From positions 1 through 30,077 of IMG/VR virus record IMGVR_UViG_3300010346_002929: a stretch of 30,077 nucleotides of DNA; one strand, given 5' to 3'. This stretch comes from a virus. Below the pieces are notes generated by a model. It was not told the DNA's origin. It saw nothing but the letters and a program-made list of their open reading frames with translations, and did no database searches. Shown here one piece after another: positions 16,347-30,077 of this stretch; the stretch's first letter is position 1, and each line of letters starts with the position of its first letter. Position numbers and translations under genes: made by a program.

Positions 16347-17285
16347 TCAGGTAATCGCTATCGGCACGATGAAGTTGTTAGTATGGATCTCGATGCCGAT
16401 CCAGCCGCCGATCTCTGCGTACTGGTTCTGGCCGGGCTGCCTCGGATAGTTGGCATCCACGTTGTAGTCCTCCGGGATCACCAGCTCTGCAGCCTGCATG
16501 CTCTTCATCACCAGGTAGACATACCCTGCCGGGAAGTAGTCGCTCCTGATCATCCAGGACAGGTCCGTCGCCTGCTTCCCGAAGATCCTGGTGCCGATCT
16601 TGTCTGAATAGATCTTTCCCAGGTCGTCCTCCTGGAGCAGGTAGTTCATGTATGCCGGCCGGCCCGCCAGGAACAGCGTTCCAGTCAGCTCCGGATCGAT
16701 GAAGTTCAGGGCGGCCCGGATATCGTCGTAGGGGTCCATCGTCTTGCTTGTCTCGGAGCCGTCCCAGGCACCATTGTTGTTGATTGTGATGATGCCGTCC
16801 CCACCGGATGCTACGATGCTGCCAAGAGAGTTTGCGGTGGCAGCCCCTACCAGGCCGGTAAGGCCGAAGGTGGTGTTGCCATTGATGATGGTGTAGTTCT
16901 CGCGCCTCTGGCATTCCATCATGGCTATGCTGACGTTCCGATTCCAGGCGGTGGGGTCAAGCTGCAGCTCGGCCTCGTTCATCAGGATTGCGTTGTCGAT
17001 CCTGTAGATGGGGAAGAGCACGTCCTTGGCCTTGCTGCCCACCACATCAGGAGCGGTGCCGCCGAGGCTCAGCCGGGCGGTTGATATGCCATCCTGAGCT
17101 GCAGTCTTGTCGATTTTCCGCACAATGTCCTTTCGGACTGTTGCAGAGACCCCCGGCCTCTGTTCTACCAGGCTCCTGCCTATGTAGCCGTCCTTGAACC
17201 GCTGCTGGAAGACGAGGATGGTCTTCTGCATGTTGAGCAGGACTTCCTGGGGGATTGATGCCCCGTAATTGAGTTCACCTACCAT
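16347..17285 (-). CDS. Major capsid protein (HK97 fold)
   Basis: 312 aa in the canonical position. ENYTIINGNTTFGLTGL resembles the En..i.nG......GL motif of HK97/encapsulin-like capsids. Confidence 0.85.
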   Translation of the reverse strand: MVGELNYGASIPQEVLLNMQKTILVFQQRFKDGYIGRSLVEQRPGVSATVRKDIVRKIDKTAAQDGISTARLSLGGTAPDVVGSKAKDVLFPIYRIDNAILMNEAELQLDPTAWNRNVSIAMMECQRRENYTIINGNTTFGLTGLVGAATANSLGSIVASGGDGIITINNNGAWDGSETSKTMDPYDDIRAALNFIDPELTGTLFLAGRPAYMNYLLQEDDLGKIYSDKIGTRIFGKQATDLSWMIRSDYFPAGYVYLVMKSMQAAELVIPEDYNVDANYPRQPGQNQYAEIGGWIGIEIHTNNFIVPIAIT

Positions 17286-20119: not shown

Positions 20120-21475
20120 CTACACCGTAGTATTGGATGGGTTCATGACGTTGTTTTTGTTTCCGAAGATCAGGGCGTGCTCGGCTGCAAGAGCCGCTAT
20201 CTCCTCATCAGTCAGAGGATTTAACCCCTCCAACTGCCTAAACTCGTTGATTGTGATTGCATGAGATCGATAATTTTCCAGGTTCCTCTGGTGCTCTTTT
20301 TCCTTATCTGCGGGGCTCCAATCCCACCACGCGAACTCGTCCGCCAGCTCGAACCCATTCCACTCTAGCCACTGTGTCCACAGGTTCTCAAATGGTCGGC
20401 CCCACAGCTCTCTCTCCGAGGCGATATGCAGATCGAGCAGGGTCTTTGAGGGGGCAGTGGTAGCGCTGATGGCCTGGGCCGTTACCTCCAGCACATCACG
20501 TTTGAAGAAGAAGGCAATGATCTCTTCCCGGAGGTACTTGTCAGCCTCCCAGGGGTTGAGCGGCATAGAGATGGTCGGGTACTCGATCCTCGTTCCCGCA
20601 AGAGCCACCTTTCGGTTGACATATGACTGGTTTTCAGCCAGATCATCGCAGTGTTCTATGAGGTCCTGCATCTTGATGGGAATCTTAGCCTGGATCATGG
20701 ATACGACGTCCCTGGCGTCGATCCGTTCGGTCTCATTTGGGACTGCAACCCTTCGCTCGGCAGTCATGCCGTAGCGCCGCACTTCTTTCCAAGCCTCGAT
20801 GCTCGGCTGGAGCACCTTGAGGAAGCTGATATCGTCCGGTACGGTCACATCCTCGATGTAGAGGAGGTTGTCAGGGTCAAGCTCCTTGGCTTGGCCGCCC
20901 CAGCCCGCGCCGCTCTGGAAGAATCGTGTGGTATCCTGCTTGGCATCGTAGATGATACCCGGGAGGATCTTGTCAGAGAGGTAGTCCTCGCCCACGCCCG
21001 ATGCAGTGCTGAAGCTCTGAGCCGGTAGGTGCTGGATCTCTGCGAAGTTGAGCCAGTTGCCCTCCTGCATGGTGGCGTACTCTGATATGGCCTGGCGGAA
21101 TGACCAGCCATCCAGGGCTGCTGCCCGGACCAGACCCAGCGTACCGCACCGGCGGGCCTTTCCTATCCGGCCTATGCGCTTCTCCTGGTTGTGGATCTGG
21201 GCCAGGGCCTTCTCGATGGCCGGACCCTGTGTGTCGTCGGATGAATCGATGGGCTGCAGAACGTGATCGAATCCAGAGAAGCATAATCGAGAGAGCCCAG
21301 ACAGGGACTCCATGACGACGGGAACAGATCGGTTAGCTGCTATGCGCTCGGGGGTGATGGCCGAGCTGCGATCTATCCAGCCCAGAGGCTGACCGAACCG
21401 CACCACAGGTGAGCCGGACATGGCCGGAGAGGCAGCTTCCTTCTGCCTCCTAAAGAGTTGATCCAAGAATTTCAT
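20120..21475 (-). CDS. Portal protein
   Basis: 451 aa directly after terL, with C-terminal ITINEFRQLEGLNPL (T.NE.R...GL.P). Confidence 0.88.
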   Translation of the reverse strand: MKFLDQLFRRQKEAASPAMSGSPVVRFGQPLGWIDRSSAITPERIAANRSVPVVMESLSGLSRLCFSGFDHVLQPIDSSDDTQGPAIEKALAQIHNQEKRIGRIGKARRCGTLGLVRAAALDGWSFRQAISEYATMQEGNWLNFAEIQHLPAQSFSTASGVGEDYLSDKILPGIIYDAKQDTTRFFQSGAGWGGQAKELDPDNLLYIEDVTVPDDISFLKVLQPSIEAWKEVRRYGMTAERRVAVPNETERIDARDVVSMIQAKIPIKMQDLIEHCDDLAENQSYVNRKVALAGTRIEYPTISMPLNPWEADKYLREEIIAFFFKRDVLEVTAQAISATTAPSKTLLDLHIASERELWGRPFENLWTQWLEWNGFELADEFAWWDWSPADKEKEHQRNLENYRSHAITINEFRQLEGLNPLTDEEIAALAAEHALIFGNKNNVMNPSNTTV

Positions 21476-24119: not shown

Positions 24120-24289
24120 TGCTTCACCAACTTCTCCAGCCGTCTAGTCCACGCCCGGACGCTGTTCTCTGCGATCTTTCGATCATCTTCCAGACGTTTG
24201 ATTGCTGTAGAGATGCTCAGCTCTTTTGCCTTCCAGTATTCCAGCTCGTTCTGGGCGAGCTGGATATCCGAGTCCTTCCTGGAGCTCAT
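24116..24289 (-). CDS. Small coiled-coil protein (57 aa)
   Basis: Start moved to ATG 24289 (MSSRKDSD), an ATGA overlap with the upstream stop. Confidence 0.6.
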   Translation of the reverse strand: MSSRKDSDIQLAQNELEYWKAKELSISTAIKRLEDDRKIAENSVRAWTRRLEKLVKQ

Positions 24290-25254
24290 AGATCGGCCCC
24301 CTGCGATCTGAGCCGCACACGCACGGACTGCTCGCCGTAGTAGTAGCCTTCCAGGTTCAGAGCCTCTGAGATCTGCTTCGGGTTCATTCCAGTCCGCCAC
24401 ATATCCCACATCTTCTGGTCCAGCTCGGCGCGGCTGATTGGTACAGGATCGGGCATCTCCTCGTTTGATGAGACTGCATCTGCGTCGGAGTTGATCTGAT
24501 CTTGGCGACCCATCTCTTTGGGCATCGGGGCATTGTGGGCCATCTCGTCATGGGATTCGGAGGAGCGCTTCTTTCGGATCTCCTGATGGCGTGCCATCAC
24601 ATCGCCTATGGTACAGTCGTGTCCTCTGCTCCGGAGAGCCTCGTGGATCTCTTTGAATTTCACACCCGCATCTCTTTGTGCATCGATGAAATCATCCTCG
24701 CTGTGTGGAATCCTCGGGGGTGCTCGGCGGGTGGTTTGCGCTTTCGTGGAGGTGCTTGTCTCGTTCTGAATTGTATCTTGCGTCTCCTTCACAGATTTTT
24801 CAACTATTCGGGAATCCCGAATAGTTGGACGCTCTTCAACCATCTGGGTATCCCGGATAGTTGGATCGGAGTGAGCAAGTTCTCCACTCAAAGCTGCATA
24901 TGCCTCCTTCCTCAGACCTTCGGCCTTTTGATCCTGTTTGTATTTCCAGTAGCGCATCCTCGCAGCCTTCGGAGTGATGTTACCTGCCTCGGCTGCGATA
25001 GCCGGCCAGGACCGGCGCTTCCTATCTGGCCCCAGCGACTCCCTGAGCTCCACAACCTTCTCGGTGATCCTCTGGCTCTCTTCAGGATCGTAATATCGAG
25101 CCGCCAGGCCTGTCCTCTGTGGGTGGAATCCCTGAGAGAGCTTGATTGCTACGTCGATGTGTCCTCGGATGAGGTTGATCTCGTTCAGCCGGTCGAGCGG
25201 AACTGCCCCCTCTGGGGGAAACAGGATTTTCAGAATCTCTGCCTCAGTGCTCAT
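24286..25254 (-). CDS. Multi-HTH DNA-binding protein (322 aa)
   Basis: Start moved to ATG 25254 (MSTEAEIL, ATGA overlap). Three HTH-like segments (RSWPAIAAEAG, GVKFKEIHEAL, GMNPKQISEAL) joined by low-complexity linkers. Confidence 0.65.
   Translation of the reverse strand: MSTEAEILKILFPPEGAVPLDRLNEINLIRGHIDVAIKLSQGFHPQRTGLAARYYDPEESQRITEKVVELRESLGPDRKRRSWPAIAAEAGNITPKAARMRYWKYKQDQKAEGLRKEAYAALSGELAHSDPTIRDTQMVEERPTIRDSRIVEKSVKETQDTIQNETSTSTKAQTTRRAPPRIPHSEDDFIDAQRDAGVKFKEIHEALRSRGHDCTIGDVMARHQEIRKKRSSESHDEMAHNAPMPKEMGRQDQINSDADAVSSNEEMPDPVPISRAELDQKMWDMWRTGMNPKQISEALNLEGYYYGEQSVRVRLRSQGADL
24801..24863. repeat. Two tandem 27-bp palindromes within the multi-HTH gene
   Basis: CAACTATTCGGGA-A-TCCCGAATAGTTG (24801-24827, perfect 13-bp arms) and CAACCATCTGGGT-A-TCCCGGATAGTTG (24837-24863, 10/13), 36 bp apart. 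Confidence 0.85.
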
Positions 25255-25604
25255 GCTTTGACTCCTTGAATCTGGATATTGACCTCTTCTCCAACATGCG
25301 ATCGATACCATTCCTCTTTTTGTGGAGGCCATGCTGGCCTAATTGTGGTCCAAAGATAGCCCCCCGTGAGGAGCAGCAGCACCAAGAACTCTTTTCCATG
25401 TGAAAGCTCAAAATTCCCAGGCTTCCATCGGAACTTAGTGTCCCACTCGATGAACTCCTTCGAGAGCTGGCTGCGATCTACCTTCAGAACGGCCAGCAGG
25501 GTGGTTGGCCTGTCTGGGTCCATCATATCCATTGCAGAGAACGGCATCTTGCAGTACTCGGCAGCGAATTTGATTGTAGCTAAGCCCACTTTCTTCATCT
25601 CCAA
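25251..25604 (-). CDS. Hypothetical protein, possibly ASCH/PUA-like
   Basis: 117 aa (or ATG start at 25598). IKF..EY.K and WTTIR...P.KEEWYRS..GE resemble a phage family I recall as ASCH/PUA-like. The fold call is tentative. Confidence 0.45.
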   Translation of the reverse strand: MEMKKVGLATIKFAAEYCKMPFSAMDMMDPDRPTTLLAVLKVDRSQLSKEFIEWDTKFRWKPGNFELSHGKEFLVLLLLTGGYLWTTIRPAWPPQKEEWYRSHVGEEVNIQIQGVKA

Positions 25605-25626
25605 TTTTTATATTTCAACCGTCTTG

Positions 25627-25820
25627 AGTCTCGGAGACTTGAGACTCCAAGTCTCTCTCTACCCTTCCAACGTTACTAGCTGTTTATATACTATCTTTCA
25701 AATCCTTCCCTTCCCTCAACTAATACATACTACTCTACGACATACTTTTACTAGACTTAGTATGTCGCAGTCTGGCTTTTTACCCCCTTCTCTCCATCCG
25801 AGTCTCAAGTCTCCGAGACT
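25627..25820. repeat. Perfect 21-bp inverted repeat flanking a 152-bp non-coding spacer (candidate origin)
   Basis: AGTCTCGGAGACTTGAGACTC (25627-25647) and its exact reverse complement (25800-25820). The spacer has a strong pyrimidine bias, a TATATAAA-like box and a 9-bp IR, CGACATACT (25738-25746) / AGTATGTCG (25759-25767). Confidence 0.88.
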
Positions 25821-25836
25821 TGAAATGGAGCTTAAC

Positions 25837-26646
25837 TCATCTGATTTTTTGGTTAAGTGTGATTACCCATCTCGCAGATGAATTCTCGGCCTTCATGACA
25901 CGAAAGCGATCATCCATCCTACATGCATCTCGCAGGCGAAAGGCTTGAGCTTTCGATATGCCTAGCCTTCCTCCTTTCTGTCCATGTGGTCCATGTAAGT
26001 TGCTGATGTACACTCCGCCGTTTGGGCTCTTCCTGAGTAGGCCGAAGAGTTCATCACGAAGCTTCTTCATGCCTTCAGAGTCTCGCCTGGACTCTTCCTT
26101 TTCGAGAAGCGGAGCCATCTTTTGGACCTTTTCTTCCAGGGCTTTGATGCGCCGAAGTGCTATCGCCAGGTCCTCAGCCATGCGATTTTGCCACTCTTCT
26201 TGAGTCTCAGAGACTTTGATACCAGTCTCAGAGACTTTGTGACCGTCTGCTGATGCTGTATTAGGATTATCACTATCAGCAGGAGCATCAACAGTACCAG
26301 AGACTTTGTTACCTTTCTCTGATATCGTTTTTGTATGAACGTTAGCAGTAGGCTTATCTTCGGTCTCAGAGACTTTGTTACCTCTCTCTGGTATCGTTTC
26401 TGCTGAACCATTATCCTGAGGTATCATCTCAGTCTCAGAGACTTTGATACCTGCGGCCAATAGCGATAATACTTGGCCGTCTGCCTGACGCGCCTGACCT
26501 GTCTCCGTGACCTTGGCCTTGCCTCTGGGCTTCGGCTTGCCTGCGTTCCTGGCCTTAATCTCTGCCCAGCAGGTTGAGCACATGCCGCGCCGCAAGTCCT
26601 TCAGGTCTACTTCTTTCTGGCAGCGCGGGCAGATGGCGAGGCTCAT
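25837..26646 (-). CDS. Candidate replication initiator: Zn finger + repeat linker + coiled coil + wHTH (269 aa)
   Basis: Start moved to ATG 26646 (MSLAICPRC, ATGA overlap). CPRC..CSTC, five KVSET/KVSGT repeats, a coiled coil, and a C-terminal wHTH-like domain (LRDELFGLLRK...RLGISKAQAFRL). The function is inferred from the repeats. Confidence 0.6.
   Translation of the reverse strand: MSLAICPRCQKEVDLKDLRRGMCSTCWAEIKARNAGKPKPRGKAKVTETGQARQADGQVLSLLAAGIKVSETEMIPQDNGSAETIPERGNKVSETEDKPTANVHTKTISEKGNKVSGTVDAPADSDNPNTASADGHKVSETGIKVSETQEEWQNRMAEDLAIALRRIKALEEKVQKMAPLLEKEESRRDSEGMKKLRDELFGLLRKSPNGGVYISNLHGPHGQKGGRLGISKAQAFRLRDACRMDDRFRVMKAENSSARWVITLNQKIR
26203..26520. repeat. Iteron-like 21-bp repeats at an exact 69-bp period
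   Basis: Consensus AGTCTCAGAGACTTTG(A/T)TACC at 26203, 26224, 26293, 26362 and 26431, with a degenerate copy at 26500. Copies from 26224 onward are each exactly 69 bp apart. Confidence 0.9.
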
Positions 26647-26870
26647 TCTCCCTCCAGCTTCTTCTTCCATAGCCAGTCTGGCACAATCACTCGGTCCTGA
26701 AGGACCCTGATCTGGGAGCGAGGCAGCCAGTATGTGCGGACCTTGCCGCGCTTCTCGATCCTCAGAAGGATTGCTTTCTCTGTCTTGGACTCTATGCTGA
26801 TGGACGCCTGGTAGGTGGACTCATCGAGCGTTCTGAACTCGCTTTCTCCGAGCTTGAAGACTTGGCTCAT
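26643..26870 (-). CDS. Small conserved phage protein
   Basis: 75 aa. SKTEKAILL...WLPRSQI...VPDWL matches a phage pattern I recognise (ETEKA...WLPKSQI...PEWL). Confidence 0.7.
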   Translation of the reverse strand: MSQVFKLGESEFRTLDESTYQASISIESKTEKAILLRIEKRGKVRTYWLPRSQIRVLQDRVIVPDWLWKKKLEGE

Positions 26871-27082
26871 GCCACCCTCTCTTGATAGTCTCGTATAGCG
26901 GCTCTGGAGAAGCTATCTGCCTCGCAGAGGTAAGAATATAGCCAGAAGGCAGCGTTCTTCCAGCCTTGGGCATCCTGCGCAGGACTAGAATCGAAGACTA
27001 TCCCTTTTCCTCGCAGATCCGCTAATGCAGCAGGCTGGAGAGCAGCTATACGCTCTAAGGTTTCCAAGAGACGTGCAGTCAC
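26867..27082 (-). CDS. Hypothetical protein
   Basis: 71 aa, coupled to both neighbours by GTGA/ATGA overlaps. Confidence 0.65.
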   Translation of the reverse strand: MTARLLETLERIAALQPAALADLRGKGIVFDSSPAQDAQGWKNAAFWLYSYLCEADSFSRAAIRDYQERVA

Positions 27083-27309
27083 TCTCGTGCCTCCACGCTC
27101 GCCCGGCCTACCATGACGCCCAGCGCCAGGGCCATCTTCTCAACATCAGAGAGTCCATCAAGCAGCGCCACAAGTAGCCTCTCCGGGTACTCCAGGCCAT
27201 CCCCACGGACTCCCCGGGATTCCATGGCCTTCTCTTGGGCCTCTTCATACCGGCGCTCGACCTGGTCCCACTGCTGCTCAGAGAGGCAGAAGGCATCTAC
27301 GACGGTCAA
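27079..27309 (-). CDS. Hypothetical protein (76 aa)
   Basis: Start moved to TTG 27309 (TTGA overlap with the upstream stop, GGAGGT upstream). Confidence 0.55.
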   Translation of the reverse strand: MTVVDAFCLSEQQWDQVERRYEEAQEKAMESRGVRGDGLEYPERLLVALLDGLSDVEKMALALGVMVGRASVEARE

Positions 27310-29879: not shown

Positions 29880-30077
29880 ATGCGTGAATATACCACAATA
29901 ACGGAAATAGATGAGAGGGGTAGAATGTTGATGCCTCTCGCTGTCCGAAAAGCGCTTGGTATCGAGAATAAAAAAGCGCTGCTAGAAATCAGAGTATCAT
30001 TGGTCGATGCAAAGAAGGAAGAGAGCGAAAACCCTCTGAAGGCCCACGCTCCTGAATTCCTTCTCGCTTCAGCTTGA
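29880..30077 (+). CDS. AbrB/MazE/SpoVT-family transcription regulator
   Basis: 65 aa. TTITEIDERGRMLMPLAVRKALGI matches the idergRi.iP..vR..lgi swapped-hairpin motif. The only convincing plus-strand gene. Confidence 0.85.
   Translation: MREYTTITEIDERGRMLMPLAVRKALGIENKKALLEIRVSLVDAKKEESENPLKAHAPEFLLASA

What the first reader, a model, noticed from the sequence alone, without database searches (positions are those of the whole stretch)
26203..26520. Palindromic iterons at an exact 69-bp period inside their candidate initiator gene
Seen: 21-bp cores at 26224, 26293, 26362, 26431 and (degenerate) 26500, each exactly 69 bp apart, plus a tandem copy at 26203. The cores keep the same codons (AAA GTC TCT G) while the 48-bp spacers have largely diverged. 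The core palindrome AGTCTC-N-GAGACT also occurs in the non-coding IRs about 400-600 bp away, so selection appears to act on the DNA. 69 bp is about 6.5 helical turns, placing successive sites on alternating faces. Known: lambda ori iterons lie within gene O. Inference: a Zn-finger/coiled-coil/wHTH initiator with a bipartite origin (phased intragenic array plus downstream IR). I do not recognise this as a described archaeal-virus replicon, and it is the best candidate for a new system here.
Basis: partly seen in the sequence, partly recalled or inferred. Interest (0 to 1): 0.78.

Follow-up and report, generated by a model that had tools for sequence, protein, structure and literature searches.

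The report
Phased binding sites inside archaeal-virus gene
A gene of a methanogen-type tailed virus carries, in its own coding sequence, a regularly spaced row of the palindromic DNA sites that also flank a conserved non-coding element just downstream; across relatives the sites, the codons that spell them and one residue of the protein's DNA-reading helix change together, which fits a lambda-O-like origin-plus-initiator module of a new protein family.

Summary
The palindrome AGTCTC-N-GAGACT occurs six times (up to one mismatch), all within 25627-26443, against 0.12 expected. Four intragenic copies lie exactly 69 bp apart. Their 21-bp cores are 88% alike and the 48-bp spacers 39%.

In 11 metagenomic relatives, each gene is followed by inverted arms around a conserved ~150-nt core. 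The arms' variable dinucleotide (G-NN-ACT) takes five forms. The intragenic boxes follow their own genome's form: the synonymous third base of the Val codon fits in 37 of 39 informative boxes, against 10 expected. Residue 233, at the start of the predicted winged-helix recognition helix, changes in step (A, T, M, K, R).

The array lies in a predicted disordered linker. So selection acts on DNA, and the protein most likely binds its own sites.

Function is inferred, not shown. I put a lambda-O-like initiator plus origin at about 0.5 and a local transcription switch at about 0.3. The protein family is tiny (19 representatives in 1.84 billion proteins), has no Pfam match and has no hit in known phage genomes. 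I rate it a new variant of a known kind.

The parts
25837..26670 (-). Gene F0: 277-aa ORF, 269 aa from the Met at 26646. Zn ribbon, disordered linker, long helix, C-terminal winged helix.
   Evidence: ORF list. 18 homologs, 19 representatives in 1.84 billion proteins. No Pfam family above threshold. AF2 model.
26545..26646 (-). N-terminal CxxC...CxxC zinc ribbon (residues 1-34 of the 269-aa form), followed by a conserved basic ARNAGKPKP stretch.
   Evidence: AF2 pLDDT 81-87. Conserved Cys columns in alignment A1. Weak Zn_ribbon_6 hit.
26215..26526 (-). Predicted disordered linker (residues 41-144) that holds the array of binding-site boxes.
   Evidence: pLDDT 28-37 over residues 41-144. Length and copy number vary among homologs, 3 to 14 boxes.
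26431..26451 (-). Box 1: 21-bp unit GGT ATC AAA GTC TCT GAG ACT, with the perfect 13-mer palindrome at 26431-26443.
26362..26382 (-). Box 2, 69 bp from box 1. One mismatch in the 13-mer (ACC for Thr).
26293..26313 (-). Box 3, 69 bp on. One half changed (KVSGT; GGTAC half).
26224..26244 (-). Box 4, 69 bp on. Perfect palindrome.
26203..26223 (-). Box 5, a tandem copy 21 bp after box 4. Perfect palindrome.
26500..26520 (-). Degenerate box (KAKVTET), 69 bp upstream of box 1 in gene orientation.
26029..26214 (-). Single long helix (residues 145-206), a probable coiled-coil dimerisation element.
   Evidence: AF2 helix 145-206, pLDDT 73-90. 98-100% nucleotide identity to L008 here.
25840..26028 (-). 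C-terminal winged-helix domain (residues 207-269). The recognition helix is 232-243 (K-x-QAFRLRDACR).
   Evidence: AF2. Foldseek gives MarR/SarA-type winged helices, prob 0.96-0.98. VIA-align Z 7-8.6, rmsd 1.4-2.4 over 59-69 residues.
25948..25950 (-). Codon of residue 233 (Ala), the candidate specificity residue x. It is A, T, M, K or R in relatives, in step with the half-site.
   Evidence: Codon position read.
25800..25820 (.). Gene-proximal inverted-repeat arm, directly after the stop codon: three half-sites at 7-bp pitch (a palindrome plus one direct half-site).
25648..25799 (-). Conserved core between the arms. Mean column identity of alignment A2, which spans arms, core and flanks, is 67% across relatives whose proteins are 35-45% identical.
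   Evidence: alignment A2. No Rfam family.
25735..25770 (-). Inner hairpin: 9-12 bp stem, 12-nt loop. Two of its pairs show compensatory changes in the distant clade.
   Evidence: (I11)
25683..25692 (-). Invariant TATA-like box (AGTATATAAA in gene orientation), about 30 nt upstream of the gene-distal arm.
   Evidence: invariant columns in A2. Promoter function is inferred.
25627..25655 (.). Gene-distal inverted-repeat arm (25627-25647) plus an extra half-site at 25650-25655.
25604..25615 (-). Conserved A/T tract after the distal arm, followed by a Shine-Dalgarno-like GATGAAGRAAGTG that is kept although the downstream genes differ.

Best explanation
F0 is a dimeric DNA-binding protein made of a Zn ribbon, a disordered linker, a coiled coil and a C-terminal winged helix. 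Its winged helix reads 6-bp half-sites of the form G-N-N-A-C-T set at a 7-bp pitch. These sites occur in one place only in the virus. Two inverted arms of three or four half-sites bracket a conserved, relatively AT-rich 150-nt core directly downstream of the gene. A row of 3 to 14 further boxes is written into the gene's own disordered-linker codons, mostly at a 69-bp period. The variable dinucleotide of the half-site is set mainly by residue 233 at the start of the recognition helix. Protein, intragenic array and arms therefore form one specificity module, which has diversified into at least five types. The most likely use is a lambda-O-like replicon: F0 coats the array and the arms, organises or opens the core, and brings in the host replisome through its Zn-ribbon end, since the virus encodes no helicase, primase or polymerase. 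Shown here: the sites, their phasing, DNA-level selection and three-way co-variation. Inferred: binding by F0, and origin function.
For: 1. Clustering: 6 palindromes against 0.12 expected, found nowhere else in the 30 kb.
2. Cores are 88% identical against 39% for spacers.
3. All 11 relatives with DNA that reaches past the stop codon carry arms after the gene, and the 9 whose sequence spans the element have both arms around the conserved core. Invariant columns spell AGT..C.G..ACT.G..ACT, and only the dinucleotides vary.
4. Intragenic boxes follow their own genome's arm type. The diagonal of the match matrix is highest, reached by 1 of 120 permutations. The Val third base fits in 37 of 39 informative distinct boxes against 10.2 expected. 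This count is inflated by shared ancestry but holds in 4 of the 5 types; the K type (L011) has one informative box, which does not fit.
5. The peptide is not conserved. It reads VSET, VSGT, VPGT, VSDT, VTDT, VADT or VAAT, and what stays fixed are the bases GT..C.G..AC. In L016 the predicted V-A-A-T box matches the reverse complement of its own arm in 12 of 13 positions.
6. Residue x tracks the half-site: A with GAGACT, T with GG[AT]ACT, M with G[ATG]TACT, K with GACACT, R with GC[CT]ACT.
7. L010 and L016 differ in site type. Their downstream proteins F4 and F8 are 95% and 99% identical, and their winged helices differ at x and in few other places.
8. WIN and L008 are 92-100% identical in DNA except at the array, the winged helix and both arms.
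9. x is the second residue of the predicted recognition helix, in a winged-helix fold.
10. The array lies in a disordered linker, as lambda's origin lies in the middle of gene O (PMC7466680).
11. Context is the recombination module of an early operon: Erf upstream, and RecT or a UvsX/Sak4-like ATPase right after the element in relatives. No replication enzyme was seen in the early-region proteins that were scanned.
Against: No experiment, and no replication signal such as a coverage peak or strand switch, could be obtained. F0 has no ATPase, helicase or nuclease domain and no sequence or specific fold link to any known initiator. The core carries an invariant TATA-like box about 30 nt upstream of the distal arm, which is what a promoter with an operator looks like. 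No AT-rich unwinding tract adjoins the intragenic array itself, unlike lambda. Half-sites 7 bp apart are unusual for a winged-helix dimer. L008 has arms of the T type but mostly A-type left halves in its boxes, and L011's boxes match its arms in one half only. The window is 73% complete, so a replication gene could lie outside it.
Confidence: 0.5

Rival explanations
1. Local transcription switch. F0 is a repressor or timer of the promoter inside the core. The distal arm is an operator lying over the transcription start of the downstream operon. The proximal arm allows looping, and the intragenic boxes act as auxiliary operators or roadblocks that feed back on F0's own long early transcript. 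The site and protein types diversify as heteroimmunity groups do.
For: An invariant TATA-like box lies about 30 nt upstream of the distal arm, followed by an A/T tract and a Shine-Dalgarno-like element before the next gene. The nearest folds are MarR/SarA-type regulators. Palindromic sites and concerted protein/operator change are typical of phage repressor-operator pairs (textbook knowledge of lambda, 434 and P22). The element sits between the early genes and the genes that lead to the terminase.
Against: The sites occur nowhere else in the genome. Up to 14 phased sites inside the coding region is far more than autoregulation needs. The exact 69-bp period is kept across very divergent spacers. 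The core (hairpin, purine tract) is conserved well beyond a TATA box. The genes after the element differ between relatives (F7, RecT, F4), while the cassette stays attached to F0. The two readings do not exclude each other.
Confidence: 0.3
2. Segregation or packaging site. F0 is a centromere-binding protein (as TubR or omega bind arrays of short repeats) for an episomal prophage stage, or a pac-recognition factor, and the phased array is wrapped into a higher-order complex.
For: Arrays of short repeats at fixed pitch, bound by small dimeric DNA binders and diversifying into incompatibility types, are typical of plasmid centromeres. The 7-bp pitch recalls the omega heptads of pSM19035 (from memory, not tested). 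pac sites often lie inside the small-terminase gene (from memory).
Against: No ParA, TubZ or ParM-like partner lies next to F0. The nearby ATPase F8 is absent from the window's virus and looks like a UvsX/Sak4 recombinase. The relative G001 has an integrase and is classed as a provirus. A separate 165-aa ORF overlaps the start of the large terminase and is the positional small-terminase candidate, 3 kb from F0.
Confidence: 0.1
3. Peptide repeat with an incidental palindrome. G-x-K-V-S-E-T is a short linear motif selected at protein level, and because V-S-[ED]-T codons (GTN TCN GAN ACN) are four-fifths palindromic by themselves, the DNA symmetry is a by-product.
For: The codon pattern does make a near-palindrome automatically. 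The 23-residue period could be a protein feature.
Against: The same sites occur in non-coding arms. The free third base of Val follows the arm type. Residues change to chemically unlike ones (S to P or A, E to G or A) exactly as the arm dinucleotide requires. The region is predicted to be disordered.
Confidence: 0.04
4. Invertible promoter segment. The 21-bp inverted repeats are cross-over sites for a recombinase that flips the 152-bp TATA-bearing core.
For: The geometry (about 20-bp inverted repeats around a roughly 150-bp promoter-bearing segment) resembles bacterial invertons (from memory). A tyrosine recombinase is present in the relative's provirus.
Against: All 9 loci that span the element have the core in the same orientation relative to F0. 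The arms co-vary with a helix residue of F0 and with the intragenic boxes, which a recombinase site would not explain.
Confidence: 0.03

Closest known systems
Bacteriophage lambda O protein and ori-lambda (lambdoid phages, including Stx phages)
   Same: The initiator's binding sites with dyad symmetry lie in the middle of its own gene, so the protein carries a repeated peptide. Copy number varies between relatives: 4 against 6 iterons, adding 13 residues (PMC7466680). The sites fall between two protein domains. Protein and sites form an exchangeable specificity module.
   Different: No sequence relation: no PF04492 or other Pfam hit. The DNA-binding domain is C-terminal, not N-terminal. The period is 69 bp instead of about 20 bp. 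There is no AT-rich tract inside the gene; instead a second, non-coding part with inverted arms around a conserved core lies downstream. The host is archaeal. Origin activity is not shown here.
Iteron-plasmid Rep proteins (RepA, pi, TrfA, RepE) with winged-helix domains
   Same: Winged-helix recognition of repeated sites. Inverted copies near the rep gene are used for autoregulation beside direct iterons used for initiation. Types diversify as incompatibility groups (reviewed in PMC4980987, listed, not read here; otherwise textbook knowledge).
   Different: F0 has one winged helix after a long coiled coil plus a Zn ribbon, not the tandem WH1-WH2. There is no Rep_3 hit. Its sites are palindromic half-site triplets, and most of them are inside the coding sequence.
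MarR/SarA-type winged-helix regulators, and PyrSV gp04 of an archaeal virus
   Same: These are the nearest folds for residues 191-269 (Foldseek prob 0.96-0.98; VIA-align Z 7-8.6). They are dimers that bind palindromes.
   Different: No sequence-family membership. The dimerisation element is a single 60-residue helix. There is no ligand pocket. The match is to the generic winged-helix fold only.
Bacillus phage SPP1 G38P with oriL inside gene 38 and a second oriR elsewhere (recalled from memory, not checked here)
   Same: An origin-binding protein with one site cluster inside its own gene and a second cluster outside it.
   Different: A different protein family and host domain. The second cluster here is adjacent to the gene, not tens of kb away.

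Membership tests
Lambda O-type replication initiators (Pfam Phage_rep_O, PF04492) | Sequence match to the family profile | tested here: not met
   The Pfam scan of F0 at E up to 0.1 lists only Sigma70_ner and Zn_ribbon_6, both below threshold.
Lambda O-type replication initiators (Pfam Phage_rep_O, PF04492) | The protein's binding sites lie inside its own gene, between two protein domains | tested here: met
   Boxes at 26203-26520 fall in residues 41-144, the disordered linker between the Zn ribbon and the coiled coil. Binding itself is inferred from co-variation.
Lambda O-type replication initiators (Pfam Phage_rep_O, PF04492) | An AT-rich unwinding tract directly beside the intragenic iterons | tested here: not met
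   No such tract beside the array was seen when reading the sequence. The relatively AT-rich conserved core lies 400 bp away, outside the gene.
Lambda O-type replication initiators (Pfam Phage_rep_O, PF04492) | Supports initiation of replication at the site | not testable with these tools
   This needs a mini-replicon, 2D gels or marker-frequency data.
Iteron-plasmid Rep proteins (Rep_3 / RepA-pi type) | Tandem WH1-WH2 fold and a Rep_3 profile match | tested here: not met
   The model has a single winged helix and there is no Rep_3 hit. The fold searches listed no Rep chain, which by itself is inconclusive.
Archaeal Orc1/Cdc6 with ORB-type origins | An AAA+ ATPase domain plus a C-terminal winged helix in the initiator | tested here: not met
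   F0 has no P-loop or AAA+ hit. The model shows a Zn ribbon, a linker, a helix and a winged helix only.
MarR-family transcription regulators | Pfam MarR profile match and a helical dimerisation bundle around the winged helix | tested here: not met
   No MarR, MarR_2 or HTH_27 hit. Only the winged-helix core superposes, Z about 8.
Winged-helix DNA-binding fold (general) | A helix-turn-helix with a beta-hairpin wing and a recognition helix | tested here: met
   AF2 gives helix 232-243 and strands 248-252 and 260-264 at pLDDT 74-89. Rmsd is 1.4-2.4 A over 59-69 residues to many winged-helix domains.

The most novel reading that the evidence does not exclude
This is the first virus-encoded origin-binding initiator family of archaeal tailed viruses that rely on the host replisome. 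Its origin is bipartite: a 69-bp-phased array written into the initiator's own disordered linker, and inverted arms around a conserved core. Its DNA specificity is reset largely by one recognition-helix residue, giving a natural five-state protein-DNA recognition code and replicon incompatibility types in methanogen viruses.
Probability: 0.4. Interest if true: 0.78.

Novelty: new variant of a known kind. Interest (0 to 1): 0.62.

Why it matters
Very little is known about how tailed viruses of methanogens start replication or time their genes, and many of them carry no recognisable replication enzyme. This cassette is a concrete, compact candidate of about 1.1 kb, consisting of one protein and its sites, that could be tested directly. 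If it replicates, it could seed a vector for Methanosarcinales-type hosts. The virus is common: the exact DNA turns up in digester and wastewater samples from 15 studies. Whatever the function, the family offers a clean natural experiment in protein-DNA recognition, with five site types tied to one helix residue in otherwise near-identical backgrounds. It is also a clear case in which a repeated peptide is the shadow of DNA sites, which matters for anyone interpreting repeats in disordered protein regions.

Tried and rejected
Site types for x = S and x = V remain untested.
- Genome-contig scans with alignment A1 and with a core DNA pattern (checked by tblastn) gave no true relative, so no named host genome was found.
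- Viral contigs gave only one relative record. Scans with P0024 and P0027 found none.
- Two pattern calls failed on syntax, as did one paper look-up.
- Rfam found no family in 25000-27000.
- A protein search of known phage genomes with F0 gave no match.
- The ESM Atlas gave only low-score unnamed clusters.
- Foldseek and VIA-align gave only the generic winged-helix fold.
- The genome search could not reach the metagenome records.
- Read laying on four RNA-labelled runs gave a few short, low-depth contigs over parts of F0 and upstream genes and none over the core. This says nothing about transcription starts or a small RNA.
- Considered and rejected: an RNA-level role of the palindromes, because a 6-bp stem with a 1-nt loop cannot form.
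- Considered and rejected: upstream F10 as the specificity protein, because it is 89% identical between WIN and L008 although their site types differ.
- Considered and rejected: downstream F4 and F8 as the specificity protein, because they are 95-99% identical between L010 and L016 although their site types differ.

Full report
**What the window is.** The window is an IMG/VR provirus record of 30,077 bp, estimated 73% complete. All genes run on the minus strand. They include a tape-measure protein, a MuF/protease fusion, a large terminase, an Erf recombinase and the ORFs taken here, by position, as portal (20120-21475) and major capsid protein (16347-17285). The terminase and that portal ORF find their best or only relatives in a Methanosarcinales virus (BK063673). 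The capsid ORF's only hit is the ANME-1 virus ANMV-1. An archaeal, methanogen-type host is therefore likely but was not identified. Scans of species genomes found no copy. The exact DNA of 24800-27200 is present in digester, sludge and wastewater metagenomes from 15 studies.

**The observation.** The gene is the minus-strand ORF 25837-26670, 277 aa, or 269 aa from the Met at 26646.
- The palindrome AGTCTC-N-GAGACT, allowing one mismatch, occurs six times, all between 25627 and 26443. The expectation is 0.12.
- Tandem Repeats Finder reports a 69-bp period.
- Boxes start at 26224, 26293, 26362 and 26431, with a degenerate one at 26500, exactly 69 bp apart. A tandem copy lies at 26203.
- The 21-bp cores are 88% identical pairwise and the 48-bp spacers 39%.
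- Downstream of the stop codon, a perfect 21-nt inverted repeat (25800-25820 and 25627-25647) encloses 152 nt. Each arm holds the palindrome plus a further half-site at a 7-bp pitch.

**The protein.**
- AlphaFold2 on a 15-sequence alignment gives a confident Zn ribbon (residues 1-34).
- It gives a region with pLDDT about 30 over residues 41-144, which is exactly the repeat array.
- A single helix spans 145-206, and a compact C-terminal domain spans 207-269 with helix 232-243 and a beta hairpin.
- Foldseek and VIA-align match residues 191-269 to many winged-helix domains (MarR, SarA, Z-alpha, TFIIIC WH), at Z 7-8.6 and rmsd 1.4-2.4 A, and to nothing more specific.
- The family is tiny: 18 proteins in the 5.8-billion set and 19 representatives in the 1.84-billion set.

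**Relatives with DNA.** One scan of metagenome contigs gave 11 loci, with proteins 36-83% identical to F0. Every protein has the same layout, with 3 to 14 copies of a seven-residue unit that ends V-x-x-T. Most copies are 23 residues (69 bp) apart. The other spacings are 21, 24, 66, 78, 81 and 84 bp. Every locus whose sequence reaches past the stop codon carries arms, and the 9 that span the whole element have the same cassette: arm, conserved core, arm.

In the alignment, the invariant columns of the arms spell AGT..C.G..ACT.G..ACT, and only the dinucleotides vary. The core contains:
- a hairpin with two compensatory pair changes;
- a purine tract;
- an invariant TATA-like box about 30 nt before the distal arm;
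- after that arm, an A/T tract and a Shine-Dalgarno-like element, both kept although the next gene differs (F7 in the window, RecT in L009, F4 in L010, L011, L013 and L016).

**Co-variation of sites, codons and helix residue.** Written as G-NN-ACT, the arm half-sites and the matching intragenic codons are as follows.

| Locus | Arm half-site | Intragenic boxes |
|---|---|---|
| Window | GAGACT | GTC TCT GAG ACT (VSET) |
| L008, L009 | GGAACT or GGTACT | GTA CCT GGA ACT (VPGT) in L009 |
| L010, L012, L013, L014, L017 (L015: incomplete left arm only) | GATACT, GTTACT or GGTACT | GTA TCA GAT ACT (VSDT); GTA ACG GAT ACT (VTDT) in L017, equal to its arm in 12 of 13 positions |
| L011 | GACACT | (not detailed here) |
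| L016 | GCCACT or GCTACT | GTG GCG GAC ACT, and GTA GCA GCC ACC (VAAT), the reverse complement of its own arm in 12 of 13 positions |

- In a matrix of intragenic half-sites against arm half-site sets, the own-genome diagonal is the maximum. For five independent lineages, 1 of 120 permutations reaches it.
- The third base of the Val codon is free at protein level. It fits the genome's own arm in 37 of 39 informative distinct boxes, against 10.2 expected from Val codon usage (nominal P about 1e-20). This figure is inflated by shared descent of repeats and loci. Even so, the base used is C, T/A, A and G/A in four different types; the K type (L011) has a single informative box, which does not fit.
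- At protein level, what survives is not a peptide but the bases GT..C.G..AC. Position 2 is S, P, T or A (all NCN codons) and position 3 is E, D, G or A (all GNN codons).
- The seven-codon unit as a whole mirrors the three-half-site arm with one extra base that keeps the reading frame. This is clearest in L010, L011 and L016.

**Which protein reads the sites.**
- The residue after the invariant S-K at the start of helix 232-243 is A in the window, T in L008 and L009, M in the G[ATG]TACT group, K in L011 and R in L016.
- L010 and L016 have different site types, yet their downstream proteins F4 and F8 are 95% and 99% identical. Their winged helices differ at this residue and in very few other places.
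- The window and L008 are 92-100% identical in DNA through the upstream genes, the coiled coil and the core. Identity drops at the array, in the winged helix and at both arms.
- Upstream F10 is 89% identical between the window and L008.
- F0's own winged helix is therefore the best candidate reader. This is an inference from co-variation, not a binding result.

**Exceptions.** L008 has T-type arms while its boxes keep A-type left halves and have mixed right halves (GGAAC, GGTAC, GAAAC, GATAC). L007 has a hybrid distal arm. L011's boxes match its arms in one half, plus the upstream GGTGTC. These look like recombinants or intermediate stages of a type switch.

**What it does.** The sites occur only in this cassette, which argues against a global regulator.

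For an origin:
- it follows the lambda precedent of iterons in the middle of the initiator gene, with copy-number variation that lengthens the protein (PMC7466680);
- the array lies in a disordered linker;
- it sits in the recombination part of the early operon, with Erf upstream and RecT or a UvsX/Sak4-like ATPase just after the element in relatives;
- no helicase, primase or polymerase was seen in the early-region proteins that were scanned, from a divergent AbrB-like gene at the window's end to the terminase;
- the core is conserved far beyond a promoter.

For a promoter/operator switch:
- the TATA-like box is invariant and the distal arm lies where a transcript would start;
- the nearest folds are regulators;
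- F0 has no enzymatic domain.

The two readings are compatible, since transcription through or near origins is part of lambda initiation. I put origin plus initiator at about 0.5, a local transcription switch at about 0.3, and a centromere or pac site at about 0.1. An incidental peptide repeat and an invertible promoter each get a few percent. All 9 loci that span the element have the core in one orientation.

**Not explained.**
- Why the period is 69 bp and why it is so well kept.
- How a winged-helix dimer uses half-sites 7 bp apart.
- What the inner hairpin does.

**Novelty.** The principle of initiator sites inside the initiator gene, with protein and sites forming one specificity module, is known from lambdoid phages. 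New here are:
- the protein family;
- the probable archaeal host;
- the C-terminal reading domain;
- the long phasing;
- the second, non-coding half of the module;
- the apparent one-residue specificity switch.

Noticed in passing
window 24802-24862 (minus-strand 348-aa gene 24286-25332): A perfect 12-N-12 palindrome (AACTATTCGGGA, one base, then its reverse complement) and a degenerate third copy 36 bp away lie inside the linker of a multi-HTH protein. They give the peptide repeats PTIRDSRIV and PTIRDTQMV. The exact 12-mer occurs only here in the window. This is a second case in this virus of a DNA-binding protein gene that carries palindromes in its own coding linker.
   Followed up: partly
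L012 3238-4741 compared with L013 765-2406: Two otherwise near-identical relatives differ by two extra 69-bp units (494 against 540 aa). L011 has five identical 69-bp units. The array therefore expands and contracts recently, as tandem iterons do.
   Followed up: partly
L007 1080-1150 and L008 4733-4945: L007 has an A-type proximal arm but a hybrid distal arm (one GAGACT-type half and one GGAACT-type half), and it resembles L008 beyond that arm. This suggests a recombination junction inside the arm.
   Followed up: partly
window 25590-25615, and the same place in L008, L010, L011, L013 and L016: The A/T tract and GATGAAGRAAGTG, which resembles the complement of the 16S rRNA 3' end, are conserved after the distal arm. 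This holds although the downstream ORFs are unrelated (F7 against F4) and would read this stretch in different frames. It is a DNA or RNA signal that belongs to the cassette.
   Followed up: no
window 29880-30077 (+) and L006 544-1668 (-): A divergently oriented AbrB/SpoVT-like ORF at the window's right end faces the start of the long early operon. It is a likely lysogeny-switch region. The relative's provirus has its integrase at the far end (G001 313-843).
   Followed up: partly
window 24800-27200: The exact sequence is held by assemblies from 15 separate digester, sludge and wastewater studies (2016-2025), so this provirus or its host is widespread in anaerobic digesters. Two metatranscriptome libraries hold exact short contigs over 26082-26255 and 26803-26998. 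This is weak evidence and may reflect DNA carry-over.
   Followed up: partly
P0027 (271 aa) and P0031, P0033-P0035 (144-211 aa): One homolog carries an extra V-P-E-T box after the coiled coil. More distant, shorter homologs keep the coiled coil and the winged helix (ISK-T-x-A-x-RLK) but lack the Zn ribbon and the repeats.
   Followed up: no
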